Assembly (NCBI RefSeq): GCF_056746865.1
Contig: NZ_CM163382.1
Reading direction: 5' to 3' (one strand)
Length of the DNA: 64,000 nucleotides
In this document: piece by piece, positions 60,134 through 64,000 of the stretch
Numbering within the stretch: position 1 is the first letter of the stretch
Layout: each line of letters begins with the position of its first letter
Made by a program: the position numbers and the translations under genes
Notes under the pieces: model-generated
Database searches by the model: none
Seen by the model: the letters and a program-made list of their open reading frames with translations, nothing else
What the model was told of the DNA's origin: nothing

Positions 60134-60163
60134 CCCGCCGTGGTGTTGCGCCACGGCGGGTTT
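60134..60163. terminator. hairpin terminator between convergent operons
   Basis: Perfect inverted repeat cccgccgtgg / ccacggcggg with a 7-nt loop, 6 nt after the AOS stop and abutting the stop of the convergent permease gene, followed by TTT. Confidence 0.55.
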
Positions 60164-61244
60164 AATGTTGTCTGTCATACCAATACACCAGGCTCAACGC
60201 CACCAGCACAAACGCTATCGGTAAACCGAGCGCGGTAACAGGTGCGCTCAACGCAAATAGCAATCCCAGATTGACCATGATTTGATAGCTGATCCAGGTG
60301 AGTAAGCCAACGATGACACCTACAGCGAGACGGCTACCCATCCCTGGCGAGCGCGGGGCGCTAAAGGTAAACGGCACAGCCAGCAAAATCATCGCCAGGG
60401 TCAGGATGGGTTGCCCCAGTTTTTCCCACAGTGCAAGGCGGTATTCGCTGCTGGGTTGCCCGGTTTCCTGCAAATAATGGATGTAATGATTAAGCTGACG
60501 GACAGAAAAAGTATTGCCCGGCATTGATAACTCTTCAAGATCCATACTGGTGAAGGCCGATTGCCAGGCAAGATTATCTAATGTTTCCAGCGTTTCTTTG
60601 CCATTCAGCCATTTTTTATGATTCACACCATGCAGGATCCACGTTTTGTCGTCTTCAATGGTGGCACTGCGTGCATAAATGTAGGATTCGAGCGAGAGAT
60701 CGTCGCGATAATGAAAAATCTCCACGCCCACCGGCTGGCCCTGCTCGTTCAGCGATTTCACCGTCACAAATTCATTACCACGCCTGGCCCACAGCATATT
60801 GCCGGTAATGTCATCGTCCTCCCCCAACGCGGTGGCGGTCGATTTGATTTGCAACGCCTGTTGCTGTAATGGCGACGCTACCCACTCATCTATCGCGCCT
60901 AACGAAACAGTCCACAATATCCCTGTAACCAGCGCCACCAGTGCAATACGGAAGATAGAAAACCCCATGCTGCGAATGGCGGTAAGCTCACTGTTTTTCG
61001 ATAACTGCCCCAGGCCGACAATCCCTCCCAATAAGGCGATAAATGGCGAAAGTTCGACCAGTGTGCGCGGTAAGGTCATTAGCACCACCAGCACCGCCTG
61101 AGTCCAGCGATAACCGCCCGGGCTGACATCATCCAGTTCGTTAATCAGGTTGAAGGTGGTAAAAAGCGGCAGCAATAGCCCTGCGGCGGCGGCAAAACCG
61201 AGAAAGAGATGACGGATTAAATAGCGGCTGAAAACATTCATCGG
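60162..61244 (-). CDS. LptG-like permease (YjgP/YjgQ family)
   Basis: Polytopic protein with a large periplasmic loop. Start set at the internal Met (MNVFSRYLIRHLFLGF), 1 nt after the upstream gene's stop; the track start at 61322 would overlap by 85 nt. Confidence 0.65.
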   Translation of the reverse strand, partial: PMNVFSRYLIRHLFLGFAAAAGLLLPLFTTFNLINELDDVSPGGYRWTQAVLVVLMTLPRTLVELSPFIALLGGIVGLGQLSKNSELTAIRSMGFSIFRIALVALVTGILWTVSLGAIDEWVASPLQQQALQIKSTATALGEDDDITGNMLWARRGNEFVTVKSLNEQGQPVGVEIFHYRDDLSLESYIYARSATIEDDKTWILHGVNHKKWLNGKETLETLDNLAWQSAFTSMDLEELSMPGNTFSVRQLNHYIHYLQETGQPSSEYRLALWEKLGQPILTLAMILLAVPFTFSAPRSPGMGSRLAVGVIVGLLTWISYQIMVNLGLLFALSAPVTALGLPIAFVLVALSLVYWYDRQH

Positions 61245-62308
61245 GAAAATTTCTGCAGCAAAGAGAAGTCGCGTGCGACCAGCATCAGCAGGCCCATTAG
61301 CATGAGTCCGGGTACTAACCACAAACCAGGAATGAGGGGAATCGCGCCGTTAGCCACCAGCGTACGGCAGACGTCACCGCCATAAAAAATGGCAATAAAC
61401 AGCAACGTCAGTGGCAATAACGTTGAAAATCGCCCTTGCCGCGGTTTTACCCGACTTAATGAAATGGCCAGCAGCGCCATCAACAATGCGGTCAGGCCAC
61501 GGCTTTGCCGCCATTGCAGTTCGGCATGATCGGCTGGAAAGACGGAGCGCGCCAGCTCCGTGACCGATTTCGCTTTGCGTTTGACGTTAGGGCTTTGATC
61601 CAGCGGATTCAGATGTAATTGCAGATTACGGTAGATCTGTTCGTTGTCATCACGCCCCTGATGATCGATAAGATAGGCAGTGCCGTTGTGCAACATAACG
61701 GTCGGTTTCTCGGGTGATGGGTCAATCACATCAACCGAACGGGCGCGGAAAATGCGGGTTCGATTGGCAGTAGAAGTATAAATCAGCGCGTCAGTCAGGC
61801 GATTATTATCCTGATCAACCGTCTGCGAAAGGATCATTCGTCCGTTATCGTTAGTGTTAAATTTCTTTGCCCGCAACTGGCGAACATCCAGCTCCGACTG
61901 CGACTGCTGCTCCAGTTGATAAATCTGCGCATAAGCCCACGGACGACCATACATCGACAGAAGGGTGACAAAAATACTTAGCGGTATCGCCAGATAAAGA
62001 ACGGCTTTGTACAAGCGTCCCGGACTGCCCCCCGCCGCAGAGATAGCGGTAATTTCCGAGTCGGTATACATCTGCCCTAGCGTCACGCCAACTGACACAT
62101 ACAGACCAACAGGTAACAACATCTCCAGTGCAATCAGTACTTTGTAGAAAACGATATCCAGCACAACATCAAGAGCTAATGTCCCATTTGCCGCTTCGGT
62201 CAGATAACGCTGTGCGGAGTAGCTGGCGAAAATAAAGATCAGAAAACCGACGATAATCAGCACCAGACGGCGCGTACCACGCATGATGTAGTGTTCAACC
62301 AGCTTCAT
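61238..62308 (-). CDS. LptF-like permease (YjgP/YjgQ family)
   Basis: 356 aa, N-terminal RLVLIIVGFLIFIFASY TM and family-typical architecture. Paired with the downstream LptG-like gene. Confidence 0.65.
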   Translation of the reverse strand: MKLVEHYIMRGTRRLVLIIVGFLIFIFASYSAQRYLTEAANGTLALDVVLDIVFYKVLIALEMLLPVGLYVSVGVTLGQMYTDSEITAISAAGGSPGRLYKAVLYLAIPLSIFVTLLSMYGRPWAYAQIYQLEQQSQSELDVRQLRAKKFNTNDNGRMILSQTVDQDNNRLTDALIYTSTANRTRIFRARSVDVIDPSPEKPTVMLHNGTAYLIDHQGRDDNEQIYRNLQLHLNPLDQSPNVKRKAKSVTELARSVFPADHAELQWRQSRGLTALLMALLAISLSRVKPRQGRFSTLLPLTLLFIAIFYGGDVCRTLVANGAIPLIPGLWLVPGLMLMGLLMLVARDFSLLQKFSR

Positions 62309-62338
62309 CTCACTAACGCCCTCAATCCTTTGAGTTTT

Positions 62339-62902
62339 TTATTCATTGATCAGTTTCTGCGCCAACGCAATGACATGATCTACCTCTTCCGGCGTCAGGC
62401 TGCCGTCCTTTGCCCACTGAATTTGCCCGGCTTTATTCAGCACCAGAATGGTTGAACTCTGCTCCGGCAAGCGCCAGGCAACGCGTCCCTGTCCATTGCC
62501 GTCAATAACGAATTGCGCCCACGGATAGCGGCGTTTATTTTTTTCGATTTTGCCAACAACAAAATAGCCAGTACCAAAGATGGCATCATCGGTGTTCACA
62601 ATGGTGGTGGGCTGAAAACGATCCTGCGGAAAGTTTGCCGCTTCAACCGCTTTAATTAACAGTGAGTTCTTTTTCTTCGCCGACTTACGCCCGGCGATAT
62701 ACTGAATAATGCGGACTTTTCCCGCTAATTGTGTGCTGTTCCACTTTTGGTAGTGAATTTCGTCGTCGCTATTCAGAAGCAGCTCGCCGCCTTCCTGGAT
62801 ATAAACAGGGGTAACCGTTTTGCCAGTGACGAAATTGTGTGCCTGCACACCCGGGGCTAAGAGCATGATAATCAACGCAATAATCAAACGAGATGACATC
62901 AT
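62339..62902 (-). CDS. YtfJ-family periplasmic protein
   Basis: 187 aa, signal peptide. TTIVNTDDAI and QWAKDGSLTPEEV segments match E. coli YtfJ as I recall it. Confidence 0.55.
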   Translation of the reverse strand: MMSSRLIIALIIMLLAPGVQAHNFVTGKTVTPVYIQEGGELLLNSDDEIHYQKWNSTQLAGKVRIIQYIAGRKSAKKKNSLLIKAVEAANFPQDRFQPTTIVNTDDAIFGTGYFVVGKIEKNKRRYPWAQFVIDGNGQGRVAWRLPEQSSTILVLNKAGQIQWAKDGSLTPEEVDHVIALAQKLINE

Positions 62903-62910
62903 TGCTCCGG

Positions 62911-63735
62911 CTATAGCGGAAAACGCGAAATCAGCAGCTCTAAGCGCTGACGAATATCGCTATCCAGCGCCACCGGTGCATCATACGACTGGCGGTTTTC
63001 CATATCATCCGCCACCATGTCGTCGTGTTTATCTCCCATCAGGCCATTAATGGCGGCGAGGAAGCGGGATATCTGTAACGCCTCTTTATTTTCAGGATCA
63101 AGCGATCTTAAGGTGTCGTAATAAGAAACCTGCTGGCTGATGATTTTTCGCACATCATGAAATTCCCTACCGGTTAGTCGCGGTTTGGCAATAATCTCTT
63201 TCAGGGTATGCATTTGCTTTTGCCGATAGGCAATAAAACTGCTTACGCTTTCTAACTGGCTATGGCGTAATGAATAGTTCACCAACGACCAGACCGGAGA
63301 GCTTAAATAAATCCGTAACAGGTTGCCGTAATACGACACAATATTTTTCTTACCGTTACGAAAGCCGTCCTGAAAACGCCCCAGAAAAACGGTCGTTTTG
63401 CCGAATAAAAATCCGGCCTGATGCTTCTTTAAATACAGCCGTTGCGCAAAACGCAGGTGCTTGTAGCGCGCTCGCATGTATTTAAATTGTTTGCGCTCAT
63501 CAGCAGTCAGCTCATCGCCTTTGGCTTGTTTGCGAACTAAACGCAGTAACTCCTGACGATCAACGCCATTGAGCCAGAATTGCAGGCATAACGCGTAATT
63601 ATCATGAATGATTTCGGTGGTACAACTTAGTGCAATAGTCGGCGGCAAACTAACCTGTGCATCAACGACATCATCTTCTTCAATCGCAACAAATAGACGC
63701 TCGCTCGCCTCAAGCGGGAAATATTTTCTCATCAT
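62911..63735 (-). CDS. hypothetical protein
   Basis: 274-aa ORF, helical and charged, no signal peptide. Same strand and tight spacing with neighbours. Confidence 0.35.
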   Translation of the reverse strand: MMRKYFPLEASERLFVAIEEDDVVDAQVSLPPTIALSCTTEIIHDNYALCLQFWLNGVDRQELLRLVRKQAKGDELTADERKQFKYMRARYKHLRFAQRLYLKKHQAGFLFGKTTVFLGRFQDGFRNGKKNIVSYYGNLLRIYLSSPVWSLVNYSLRHSQLESVSSFIAYRQKQMHTLKEIIAKPRLTGREFHDVRKIISQQVSYYDTLRSLDPENKEALQISRFLAAINGLMGDKHDDMVADDMENRQSYDAPVALDSDIRQRLELLISRFPL

Positions 63736-64000
63736 CAGGATTTCTCTCCGGCTGCGTTATAAAGCAAGGAATGGCGCTGAAAAAATGCCTTTAAGGTTGG
63801 AATTAACGAGAGCGCCACGTCCAGACATTGCCCACCGAAGTAAGCAAACGCTGCTCCCAGCACACCAAACAGATGACAGAACATGAACAGCAATACGATG
63901 TAGCCGATTGAGGCGATGGTTTGCGCCACGAGAAAAGCGCGCTGTTTTCCCGCCATCAATAGCAATGACTCCTGAGGGAAGCCCAGCATCGAAATCACAA
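63735..64000 (-). CDS. C-terminal part of a polytopic membrane protein, probably the YghQ-type polysaccharide/lipid flippase (gene continues beyond window end)
   Basis: Hydrophobic C-terminal segment (TIASIGYIVLLFMFCHLFGVLGAAFAYFGGQ). Open frame reaches the window edge. In E. coli yghQ lies on this side of the yghO locus. Confidence 0.4.
   Translation of the reverse strand, partial: VISMLGFPQESLLLMAGKQRAFLVAQTIASIGYIVLLFMFCHLFGVLGAAFAYFGGQCLDVALSLIPTLKAFFQRHSLLYNAAGEKS

What the first reader, a model, noticed from the sequence alone, without database searches (positions are those of the whole stretch)
60162..64000. Convergent operon of LptF/LptG-like permeases, YtfJ-like periplasmic protein and flippase-like gene, a possible export route for the lipid product
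On the opposite strand, ending at a shared hairpin with the lipid operon, are a flippase-like membrane protein (partial), a 274-aa hypothetical, a secreted YtfJ paralog, and an LptF-like/LptG-like pair separated by 1 nt. LptFG-type permeases extract lipid-anchored glycolipids from the inner membrane, so a second copy next to a lipid-biosynthesis operon suggests a dedicated transport system for its product. No ATPase partner is encoded in the window.
Basis: partly seen in the sequence, partly recalled or inferred. Interest (0 to 1): 0.6.

Follow-up and report, generated by a model that had tools for sequence, protein, structure and literature searches.

The report
Second LptFG pair beside E. 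coli sphingolipid genes
The genes are real: most E. coli strains (not K-12) carry a second, divergent copy of the LptF/LptG lipid-extracting permeases next to a ceramide-synthesis operon, very probably a dedicated sphingolipid exporter that borrows the LPS ATPase LptB, an idea already published for Caulobacter, with the E. coli locus shown in that paper's figure.

Summary
The window is an E. coli chromosome. On the minus strand it holds lptG2 (60162-61241), lptF2 (61238-62308; the two overlap by 4 nt rather than being 1 nt apart), a secreted YtfJ paralog, a 274-aa orphan, and the 3' end of yghQ, a MOP-family flippase. This operon converges on aasR-cerR-acpR-spt at a strong hairpin.

The permeases are not relocated housekeeping genes. 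A near-identical genome keeps lptFG beside pepA, at only 28-29% identity.

LptG2 relatives were recovered from 80 species. All 70 loci with enough flanking DNA have ceramide-synthesis genes alongside.

No ABC ATPase follows position 64000. YghR/S/T have a thymidylate-kinase fold.

A 2024 paper proposed it, and a 2026 preprint tested LptF2/G2 plus shared LptB in Caulobacter and drew the E. coli UTI89 locus.

One result seems undescribed. Enterobacterales replace the Caulobacter/Pseudomonas head-group genes with a conserved module: YtfJ2, a CHAD-fold protein, YghQ and YghR/S/T. Nobody has reported the E. coli lipid.

The parts
60162..61241 (-). lptG2: LptG-family permease paralog, 359 aa
   Evidence: TIGR04408 scores 308.7 bits. 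It aligns over its full length to solved LptG chains. It is 28% identical to housekeeping E. coli LptG. The coupling-helix Glu is conserved (E85, equivalent to LptG E88). dN/dS is 0.045 against E. whittamii.
61238..62308 (-). lptF2: LptF-family permease paralog, 356 aa, translationally coupled to lptG2 by an ATGA overlap
   Evidence: TIGR04407 scores 317.8 bits. It aligns to solved LptF chains. It is 29% identical to housekeeping LptF, and E85 aligns with LptF E84. The junction sequence is. dN/dS is 0.075.
62339..62902 (-). ytfJ2: secreted YtfJ-family paralog (186/187 aa)
   Evidence: TIGR01626 scores 212 bits and Pfam PF09695 matches at 2e-59. It is 54% identical to housekeeping YtfJ. It has an N-terminal hydrophobic segment. 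It is found in 48 of 80 loci, only in Enterobacterales, and never together with the CPG head-group genes.
62911..63735 (-). 274-aa cytoplasmic orphan with a CHAD-like all-helical fold
63735..64000 (-). 3' end of yghQ (449-aa MOP/Polysacc_synt flippase; the rest lies beyond the window), overlapping the start of the 274-aa gene by 1 nt
   Evidence: Annotation of the near-identical genome. Pfam PF01943 matches at 1e-8. NCBIfam gives a weak MOP flippase match. It is a multi-TM protein. It belongs to the same InterPro family as the Caulobacter flippase candidate CC_1166.
60130..60164 (.). Shared convergent hairpin between the spt stop (60127) and the lptG2 stop (60162-60164)
   Evidence: 16-bp stem with 10 GC pairs. 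It folds at -35.8 and -21.9 kcal/mol, with z -7.2 and -4.7.
58955..60127 (+). spt: serine palmitoyltransferase
   Evidence: NF047599 scores 599 bits against a cut-off of 500. The E. coli BL21 enzyme has been characterised biochemically (PMC9386255).
58707..58955 (+). acpR: specialised acyl carrier protein
   Evidence: It matches ACP models. It corresponds to ECD_02853 in PMC9386255.
57761..58675 (+). cerR/epi: NAD-dependent epimerase/reductase
   Evidence: It matches SDR/epimerase models. It corresponds to ECD_02852.
56076..57764 (+). aasR: fatty acyl-AMP ligase, the acyl-AcpR synthetase
   Evidence: NF006624 scores 878 bits. It corresponds to ECD_02851, which acylates AcpR.
54524..55666 (-). 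yghO: N-acyltransferase, the bCerS/aca homolog
   Evidence: PGAP coordinates. It is named as the CC_1154 homolog ECD_02850 in PMC9386255. It is 52-64% identical to the corresponding gene in Pseudomonas and Nitrococcus loci.

Best explanation
The minus-strand genes are the distal part of a seven-gene operon, yghS-yghR-yghQ-orf274-ytfJ2-lptF2-lptG2. Intergenic gaps run from -4 to 45 nt. The operon serves the ceramide made by the convergent aasR-cerR-acpR-spt operon together with yghO.

Proposed mechanism:
- Ceramide, possibly with a head group, is made on the cytoplasmic face of the inner membrane.
- The MOP-family protein YghQ flips it to the periplasmic leaflet.
- LptF2 and LptG2 form a heterodimeric permease that docks onto the housekeeping ATPase LptB through their conserved coupling-helix glutamates.
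- This complex extracts the lipid from the inner membrane.
- The lipid is then most likely passed to the existing LptC/A/D/E bridge and reaches the outer membrane.

Shown here by computation:
- The identity and architecture of the genes.
- Their paralogy to the housekeeping lptFG.
- Purifying selection on every gene of the locus.
- The strict linkage to ceramide genes across species.

Shown by others, in Caulobacter only:
- The LptF2-LptG2-LptB complex.
- The sphingolipid-dependent essentiality of lptF2 and lptG2.

Inferred:
- That the same holds in E. coli.
- The roles of YghQ, YtfJ2, the CHAD-fold protein and YghR/S/T.
- The route of the lipid beyond the inner membrane.
For: 1. Family and architecture. 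Both proteins exceed the curated LptF/LptG cut-offs. Both align end to end with solved LptF/LptG chains. Both show three N-terminal and two to three C-terminal hydrophobic segments around a roughly 150-aa hydrophilic domain.

2. Second copy. Housekeeping lptFG is present beside pepA in the near-identical genome of strain 7/2, at 28-29% identity to the window's copies.

3. Synteny. Of 80 species loci found with an LptG2 alignment, 79 have LptF2 adjacent and 70 have ceramide genes within the flank. The other 10 all have a truncated flank on that side. Gene order is shuffled among genera, yet the gene set stays together.

4. Nearest relatives. Four of the more distant cluster representatives (P0126, P0131, P0139, P0140) lie in sphingolipid head-group (CPG-type) loci. 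Two of them, P0126 and P0140, also have spt, ACP, reductase and acyl-AMP ligase on the same contig. One representative outside the clade lies next to an MsbA-like gene. In NJ bootstraps, housekeeping E. coli LptG falls inside the core LptG2 group in only 4 of 100 replicates.

5. The coupling-helix Glu is conserved in both proteins.

6. dN/dS is 0.03-0.13 for all 13 genes of the locus. lptF2G2 is present in 4105 of 5426 complete E. coli genomes.

7. There is no ABC ATPase in the operon. YghR has a thymidylate-kinase fold.

8. Literature. Caulobacter LptF2/G2 co-purify with each other and with LptB. They can be deleted only in spt or cpgB mutants (10.64898/2026.04.12.717747). [quoted passage not shown]
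Against: - There is no experiment on the E. coli proteins.
- The papers I could search gave no report of a native E. coli sphingolipid, so the locus may be silent under laboratory conditions.
- The E. coli locus lacks the anionic head-group (CPG2) genes whose product made LptF2/G2 essential in Caulobacter. The preprint does not show that neutral ceramide is a substrate.
- Strict monophyly of all the sphingolipid-linked LptG2 sequences I sampled held in only 38 of 100 NJ bootstraps. I could not include the Caulobacter or Sphingomonas sequences themselves.
- Both proteins pass NCBI's LPS-exporter equivalog thresholds, so LPS cannot be excluded as a substrate from sequence alone.
- The residues I compared in TM1 (LptG K34/K40/K41 versus N31/D37/D38) are not diagnostic.
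- No LptC2 is present, and the periplasmic route is unknown.
Confidence: 0.7

Rival explanations
1. LptF2/G2 do extract the locus's lipid from the inner membrane, but they do not feed it to the Lpt bridge. The co-conserved periplasmic YtfJ2 or some other route (vesicles, Mla-like carriers) takes it onward, or extraction serves mainly to detoxify the inner membrane.
For: YtfJ2 is secreted and is inherited with LptF2G2 in 48 Enterobacterales loci. No LptC2/A2/D2 is encoded. The preprint could not show LptC2 binding and leaves the downstream route open.
Against: LptF2/G2 keep the full periplasmic domain that aligns with the bridge-forming domain of LptF/G. Sphingomonas, which has no LPS, keeps LptA/D/E. 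The Pseudomonas-type loci have LptF2G2 without any YtfJ2.
Confidence: 0.12
2. The pair is an alternative extractor for LPS or another glycolipid (for example a modified lipid A or a capsule lipid anchor), and its position beside the ceramide genes is incidental.
For: Both proteins score above the curated thresholds of the LPS-exporter equivalog models, and PGAP names them lptF/lptG. The window also carries a capsule locus.
Against: Linkage to ceramide genes holds in 70 of 70 informative loci across three orders, despite rearrangements. The capsule locus is variable and differs between strains that share this locus. Identity to housekeeping LptFG is low.
Confidence: 0.06
3. In E. coli the locus is a cryptic, horizontally acquired remnant that is never expressed, so the permeases have no present function.
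For: The papers I could search gave no report of an E. coli sphingolipid. K-12 lost the whole segment to an IS5-associated deletion with no known defect. About 24% of complete genomes lack lptF2G2.
Against: All 13 genes are intact and under strong purifying selection (dN/dS 0.03-0.13). The locus is kept in 76% of E. coli genomes and across many Enterobacterales genera. The E. coli enzymes are active when expressed.
Confidence: 0.07
4. LptF2/G2 are powered by the P-loop proteins YghR/YghS encoded in the same operon rather than by LptB.
For: YghR and YghS are co-transcribed ATP-binding proteins with Walker A motifs.
Confidence: 0.03

Closest known systems
Caulobacter crescentus LptF2/LptG2 (CCNA_01214/CCNA_01213 = CC_1156/CC_1155), sphingolipid-locus paralogs of the LPS permeases (PMC11324152; bioRxiv 10.64898/2026.04.12.717747)
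   Same: It is a second LptF/LptG pair encoded inside the spt-acpR-cerR-aasR-cerS locus, with no ATPase of its own and a Polysacc_synt-family flippase candidate nearby. The E. coli pair is 48-52% identical to the A. vinelandii pair (locus L073). The 2024 paper's S2E table lists Avin_44330/Avin_44340 among the A. vinelandii orthologs of the Caulobacter cluster. The preprint's Figure 2B draws the E. coli UTI89 locus.
   Different: The E. coli locus has no LptC2 and none of the CPG2 head-group genes (DAGK-type ceramide kinase CpgB, CDP-OH transferase, Tam41-like, NTP transferases, metallophosphatase). In their place it has YtfJ2, a CHAD-fold protein and three thymidylate-kinase-fold paralogs. No genetics or biochemistry exists for the E. 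coli permeases.
Housekeeping E. coli LptB2FGC lipopolysaccharide extractor (PDB 6MHU, 6MI7)
   Same: It shares the Pfam family PF03739, the 3+3 TM segments around a periplasmic domain, adjacent F-then-G genes and the conserved coupling-helix glutamate.
   Different: Identity is only 28-29%. The genomic home differs (pepA versus the spt locus). The housekeeping pair is present in addition in the near-identical strain 7/2 genome. LptG2 carries clade-specific residues at the start of the periplasmic domain (S123/Q126 where other LptG have P/E).
Pseudomonas/Azotobacter/Nitrococcus/betaproteobacterial sphingolipid (CPG2-type) loci
   Same: They have the same five ceramide genes plus LptF2-LptG2, with LptG2 44-59% identical to the E. 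coli protein.
   Different: They carry the phosphoglycerate head-group module and lack YtfJ2, the 274-aa protein and YghQ. The two modules never co-occur (0 of 80 loci).
CHAD domains (polyphosphate-binding helical domains: Ricinus CHAD 6QV5, PptA 6RN5, YgiF 5A61)
   Different: Pfam CHAD does not detect it. Identity to solved CHAD proteins is 8-17%. Polyphosphate binding is untested. Its genomic association is with sphingolipid genes.

Membership tests
LptF/LptG (YjgP/YjgQ, PF03739) permease family | Significant match to the family profiles over the full length | tested here: met
   TIGR04407 scores 317.8 bits and TIGR04408 scores 308.7 bits, both above their cut-offs. Precomputed PF03739 is recorded on the homologs. 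Both align end to end to solved chains.
LptF/LptG (YjgP/YjgQ, PF03739) permease family | Three TM segments, a periplasmic domain, then three TM segments; an F and a G paralog encoded side by side | tested here: met
   The hydropathy profile (a crude method) fits this layout. lptF2 and lptG2 share an ATGA overlap. LptF2 is adjacent to LptG2 in 79 of 80 loci.
LptF/LptG (YjgP/YjgQ, PF03739) permease family | Coupling-helix glutamate that contacts LptB (LptF E84, LptG E88; the role of these residues is from my own knowledge of the LptB2FG literature) | tested here: met
   LptF2 E85 and LptG2 E85 align with them. The position is invariant in the LptG2 alignment and conserved in both groups.
Housekeeping LPS exporter LptFG (orthology) | It is the single essential copy, beside pepA and near-identical to K-12 LptF/LptG | tested here: not met
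   A separate lptF-lptG pair sits beside pepA in the near-identical genome of strain 7/2. The window's proteins are 29% and 28% identical to it.
Sphingolipid-locus LptF2/LptG2 | Encoded within or next to the spt/acpR/cerR/aasR/cerS genes, in addition to a housekeeping pair | tested here: met
Sphingolipid-locus LptF2/LptG2 | Groups phylogenetically with other sphingolipid-locus copies rather than with housekeeping LptG | tested here: inconclusive
   In the NJ tree all 80 linked copies form a clade without E. coli LptG. E. coli LptG enters the core group in only 4 of 100 bootstraps. Strict monophyly of the sampled set held in only 38 of 100.
Sphingolipid-locus LptF2/LptG2 | Forms a complex with LptB; deletion is tolerated only without (anionic) sphingolipid | not testable with these tools
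   This has been shown only for Caulobacter.
ABC ATPase partner in the operon | An ABC_tran domain protein is encoded next to the permeases | tested here: not met
YtfJ family (PF09695/TIGR01626) | Profile match above the cut-off, with a signal peptide | tested here: met
   It is a paralog, 54% identical to ytfJ itself.
CHAD domain | Match to the Pfam CHAD profile | tested here: not met
   There is no Pfam hit at E<=0.001.
CHAD domain | CHAD fold (two four-helix bundles) | tested here: met
MOP (Wzx-like) flippase, for YghQ | Polysacc_synt profile match and a polytopic membrane protein | tested here: met
   PF01943 matches at 1e-8 and PF13440 at 1e-7. The NF007773 match is weak (33.8 bits against a cut-off of 273). 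The match is weak, and flippase activity is untested.

The most novel reading that the evidence does not exclude
Enterobacterales carry a distinct version of the bacterial sphingolipid locus. The phosphoglycerate (CPG2) head-group enzymes are replaced by a co-inherited module of three thymidylate-kinase-fold paralogs (YghR/S/T), a CHAD-fold cytoplasmic protein, a periplasmic YtfJ paralog and the MOP flippase YghQ.

On this reading, about three quarters of E. coli strains (including BL21 and uropathogenic strains) can make and export, through LptB-LptF2-LptG2, a sphingolipid with a head group not yet described, possibly phosphorylated. The CHAD-fold family would then be an unrecognised sphingolipid-associated protein shared with Sphingomonadales and Acetobacteraceae.
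Probability: 0.35. Interest if true: 0.7.

Novelty: already known. Interest (0 to 1): 0.4.

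Why it matters
E. coli is the textbook organism 'without sphingolipids'. Yet 76% of complete E. coli genomes carry an intact, selected ceramide pathway with its own LptFG-type permeases. K-12 hides this because an IS5-associated deletion removed the segment.

If the locus is expressed in the host, two things follow. The outer membrane of pathogenic and commensal E. coli would contain a second LptB-dependent lipid, which bears on LptB/Lpt-targeting antibiotics. 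Gut E. coli would also join Bacteroides as a source of bacterial sphingolipids.

There is a practical point as well. NCBI's pipeline names both pairs 'lptF/lptG', which can mislead essentiality, pangenome and drug-target analyses.

The central idea is already published, so the added value here is threefold:
- The quantitative comparative evidence.
- The negative answer on an operon-encoded ATPase.
- The definition of the uncharacterised Enterobacterales accessory module.

Tried and rejected
- **Substrate-pocket charge.** E. coli LptG K34/K40/K41 align with N31/D37/D38 in LptG2. However, D/E at these columns is also common in other LptG representatives, so the difference is not diagnostic.
- **Strict monophyly.** Monophyly of all sampled sphingolipid-linked LptG2 held in only 38 of 100 NJ bootstraps. 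I therefore claim only that housekeeping E. coli LptG is excluded (96 of 100).
- **Metagenome scan.** A scan with the alignment of the 274-aa protein was meant to reach the alphaproteobacterial homologs and their gene context. It returned only E. coli-like gut copies and was uninformative.
- **HMM search of Pseudomonas-type loci.** Searching all held loci found no copy of the 274-aa protein in the Pseudomonas-type loci.
- **Profile searches.** Pfam and NCBIfam gave nothing for the 274-aa protein or for YghO.
- **PDB by sequence.** This gave nothing for YtfJ2, YghR or YghQ.
- **Literature.** No paper links CHAD domains to sphingolipids, and none links yghR/S/T or ytfJ to sphingolipids.
- **K-12 yghQ and chlorhexidine.** Variants in K-12 yghQ reported in chlorhexidine-adapted strains (PMC8170033) concern the IS5-truncated remnant. 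Complementation had no effect, so I did not use them as functional evidence.
- **YghR/S as the missing ATPase.** Rejected on fold.
- **Capsule ABC ATPase in the window.** Rejected as a partner because it has its own permease and sits in a strain-variable locus.

Full report
**What the window is.** The region is an E. coli chromosome. The 9.5 kb around the finding is 100% identical to many complete genomes, and 4058 of 5426 complete genomes cover at least 80% of it. The annotated neighbourhood in strain 7/2 (17 mismatches to the window over 18.5 kb) reads as follows:
- glcDEFGBA and glcC, then yghO on the minus strand.
- On the plus strand: fatty acyl-AMP ligase, NAD-dependent epimerase, ACP, spt.
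- On the minus strand, converging on these: 'lptG', 'lptF', a YtfJ-family protein, a hypothetical protein, a 449-aa 'lipopolysaccharide biosynthesis protein' (YghQ), yghR and yghS.
- Then yghT, pitB and gss.

**Checking the observation.** Three details need correction.
- lptF2 (61238-62308) and lptG2 (60162-61241) overlap by four bases (ATGA), which fits translational coupling. They are not 1 nt apart.
- The longest ORF for lptG2, which starts at a GTG, is probably too long. PGAP and the homolog alignment support the 359-aa form.
- The window does contain one ABC ATPase. It is a KpsT-like protein at 22963-23613, next to its own KpsM-like permease in a capsule locus.

The shared hairpin is real and strong: a 16-bp stem, -35.8 kcal/mol, z -7.2. 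The minus-strand genes are tightly packed. Using the coordinates:
- yghQ and orf274 overlap by 1 nt.
- orf274 to ytfJ2 is 11 nt.
- ytfJ2 to lptF2 is 30 nt.
- yghR to yghQ is 45 nt.
- yghS to yghR is 31 nt.

This suggests a seven-gene operon that starts beyond the window at yghS.

**Are these simply the essential lptFG moved elsewhere?** No. The near-identical strain 7/2 genome has lptF-lptG in the canonical position beside pepA. LptF2 is 29% identical to LptF, and LptG2 is 28% identical to LptG. Against solved structures, LptF2 matches Pseudomonas LptF (115 bits) better than E. coli LptF (93 bits). Both proteins still have the family's hallmarks:
- Full-length alignment to LptF/LptG structures.
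- The 3 + 3 hydrophobic segments around a hydrophilic middle domain.
- The coupling-helix glutamate (LptF E84 / LptF2 E85; LptG E88 / LptG2 E85). From my own knowledge of the LptB2FG literature, this is the residue that contacts LptB.

**Is the pair tied to the lipid operon?** I searched one representative per 50% cluster of 15 billion proteins with LptG2. Only a handful of full-length clusters exceed 43% identity. After them comes a continuum at 30-37%.
- Four of the closer representatives sit in sphingolipid head-group (CPG-type) loci. Two of them (P0126, P0140) also have spt, ACP, reductase and acyl-AMP ligase on the contig. For the other two (P0131, P0139) the contigs show only the CPG-type genes (CDP-alcohol transferase, DAG-kinase-like) beside LptF2-LptG2.
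- A representative outside the clade sits next to an MsbA-like gene.

A scan of one genome per bacterial species with an LptG2 alignment returned 80 loci. They come from sixteen genera of Enterobacterales, from Pseudomonas, Stutzerimonas, Azotobacter, Azomonas and Nitrococcus, and from betaproteobacteria. A tblastn table shows:
- LptF2 is adjacent in 79 loci.
- Ceramide genes lie within 10 kb in 70 loci.
- The remaining 10 loci all have a truncated flank on the relevant side.
- Gene order differs between genera, with at least four arrangements in Enterobacterales, yet the set stays together. That is the classical signature of functional coupling.

In an NJ tree all these LptG2 sequences form a clade that excludes housekeeping LptG. 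Support is moderate. E. coli LptG enters the core group in 4 of 100 bootstraps, but strict monophyly of the deepest members held in only 38 of 100. All 13 genes of the E. coli locus are under strong purifying selection (dN/dS 0.03-0.13 against E. whittamii). lptF2G2 occur in 4105 of 5426 complete E. coli genomes. K-12 lacks them because an IS5 element lies between yghO and a truncated yghQ.

**What is already published.**
- The plus-strand operon is a known ceramide pathway. E. coli BL21 AasR, AcpR and Spt have been characterised biochemically, and yghO has been named as the N-acyltransferase homolog (PMC9386255).
- A second set of LptC/F/G plus a flippase (CC_1166, Polysacc_synt family) in the Caulobacter sphingolipid locus was proposed as a sphingolipid export route in 2024 (PMC11324152).
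- An April 2026 preprint (10.64898/2026.04.12.717747) reported four relevant points:
  - Caulobacter lptF2, lptG2 and lptC2 can be deleted only when spt or cpgB is deleted.
  - LptF2 and LptG2 co-purify with each other and with the single LptB.
  - lptF2/G2 are present in many alpha- and gammaproteobacterial sphingolipid loci.
  - Its Figure 2B shows the E. coli UTI89 locus.

**What seems not to be described.** The loci fall into two mutually exclusive architectures.
- Pseudomonas, Azotobacter, Nitrococcus and betaproteobacteria combine LptF2G2 with the CPG2 head-group genes: NTP transferases, CDP-alcohol transferase, DAG-kinase-type ceramide kinase, Tam41-like and metallophosphatase.
- Enterobacterales have none of these. 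They carry YtfJ2 (48 loci), the 274-aa protein (47 loci) and YghQ (42 loci), and most of them also carry YghR/S/T.
- In 0 of 80 loci do the two modules co-occur.

The components of the Enterobacterales module look like this:
- YtfJ2 is a secreted paralog, 54% identical to ytfJ.
- The 274-aa protein has no profile match, and its 344 sequence relatives are all enterobacterial among those listed.
- Foldseek against AFDB50 finds homologs of 29-41% identity, annotated as CHAD domain proteins, in Sphingomonas, Zymomonas, Acetobacter, Gluconobacter, Komagataeibacter and Pseudomonas veronii. By my own knowledge, plus for Sphingomonas, Zymomonas and Gluconobacter, these are sphingolipid producers.
- I could not retrieve their gene neighbourhoods. 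The metagenome scan gave only E. coli copies.
- A single YghR-like gene also lies next to spt in several Pseudomonas loci.

I infer, but have not shown, that this module handles or modifies the head group, and that the E. coli lipid differs from CPG2.

**Mechanism and confidence.** The most likely sequence runs as follows:
- Ceramide is made at the cytoplasmic face by AasR, AcpR, Spt, YghO and CerR.
- It may be modified by the kinase-like proteins.
- YghQ flips it to the periplasmic leaflet.
- An LptB2-LptF2-LptG2 complex extracts it.
- It is handed to the Lpt bridge.

I give this 0.7. The main rival (0.12) keeps the extraction step but routes the lipid through YtfJ2 or another path. Alternative substrates, a cryptic relic and YghR/S as the energiser are each below 0.1.

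**Verdict.** The operon is real and correctly read. Its central interpretation is supported by strong comparative evidence and by published work in another organism. The kind of system is already known, and the E. coli member has been pointed out. Residual interest lies in the uncharacterised enterobacterial accessory module and in the fact that no E. coli sphingolipid has been reported.

Noticed in passing
window 62911-63735: The 274-aa orphan has a confident CHAD-like fold. Its only non-enterobacterial relatives (29-41% identity, found by structure search) are in Sphingomonas, Zymomonas, Acetobacteraceae and Pseudomonas veronii. No paper I could search links CHAD domains to sphingolipids.
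   Followed up: partly
beyond the window: L001 19631-22000 (yghR, yghS, yghT): These are three paralogous thymidylate-kinase-fold P-loop proteins with invariant GxDGxGKST, DRYPQ and ARKPDH motifs. They are co-inherited with the locus in most Enterobacterales. A single copy lies next to spt in several Pseudomonas loci (L046, L055, L057, L060, L083), and a full triad lies in L058. They may be lipid or head-group kinases.
   Followed up: partly
window 60162-62308 and L002 36586-38768: NCBI PGAP gives the paralogs the same names and products as the essential genes ('lptF', 'lptG', LPS export ABC transporter permease), because they pass the equivalog cut-offs. About 76% of complete E. coli genomes therefore appear to have two lptF and two lptG genes.
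   Followed up: yes
L092 (K-12 MG1655 3130146-3132408): In K-12 an IS5 element lies between yghO and a yghQ shortened to 355 aa. Everything from aasR to the 274-aa gene is missing. Phenotypes reported for K-12 'yghQ' (for example in chlorhexidine adaptation, PMC8170033) concern this remnant.
   Followed up: partly
window 1-27600: This is a capsule locus with KpsD/KpsM/KpsT/KpsE-like export genes, rfbBDAC, several GT2 glycosyltransferases and a large methyltransferase. Only 36 complete E. coli genomes cover at least 80% of the first 25 kb, and the four best matches (99.7% identity) are cattle and sheep isolates. It differs from the capsule region of strain 7/2, which otherwise matches the right half of the window.
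   Followed up: partly
window 27634-45600: This stretch holds the type II secretion system beta (yghD/gspL-C, gspS2, pppA) and sslE, followed by the glc operon. It is 93-96% identical to strain 7/2, which is lower than the near-100% identity of the sphingolipid locus and suggests a recombination mosaic.
   Followed up: no
protein P0019 and P0302: A 456-aa E. coli protein joins a GspC N-terminal domain to the C-terminal 72% of LptG2 and is seen on 3 contigs. This suggests a deletion between the T2SS and the sphingolipid locus in some strains. A 280-aa relative of the 274-aa protein is named 'GspM' by its source, which is probably a naming error.
   Followed up: no
L048-L053 (Rosenbergiella) and L040, L044 (Pantoea coffeiphila, Rahnella): Rosenbergiella loci keep YtfJ2, the 274-aa protein and YghQ but have no YghR/S/T within the flanks. 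In Pantoea coffeiphila and Rahnella the YtfJ2 and 274-aa pair is separated from LptF2-LptG2 and no YghQ was detected. These are natural 'deletion variants' that could help assign roles.
   Followed up: no
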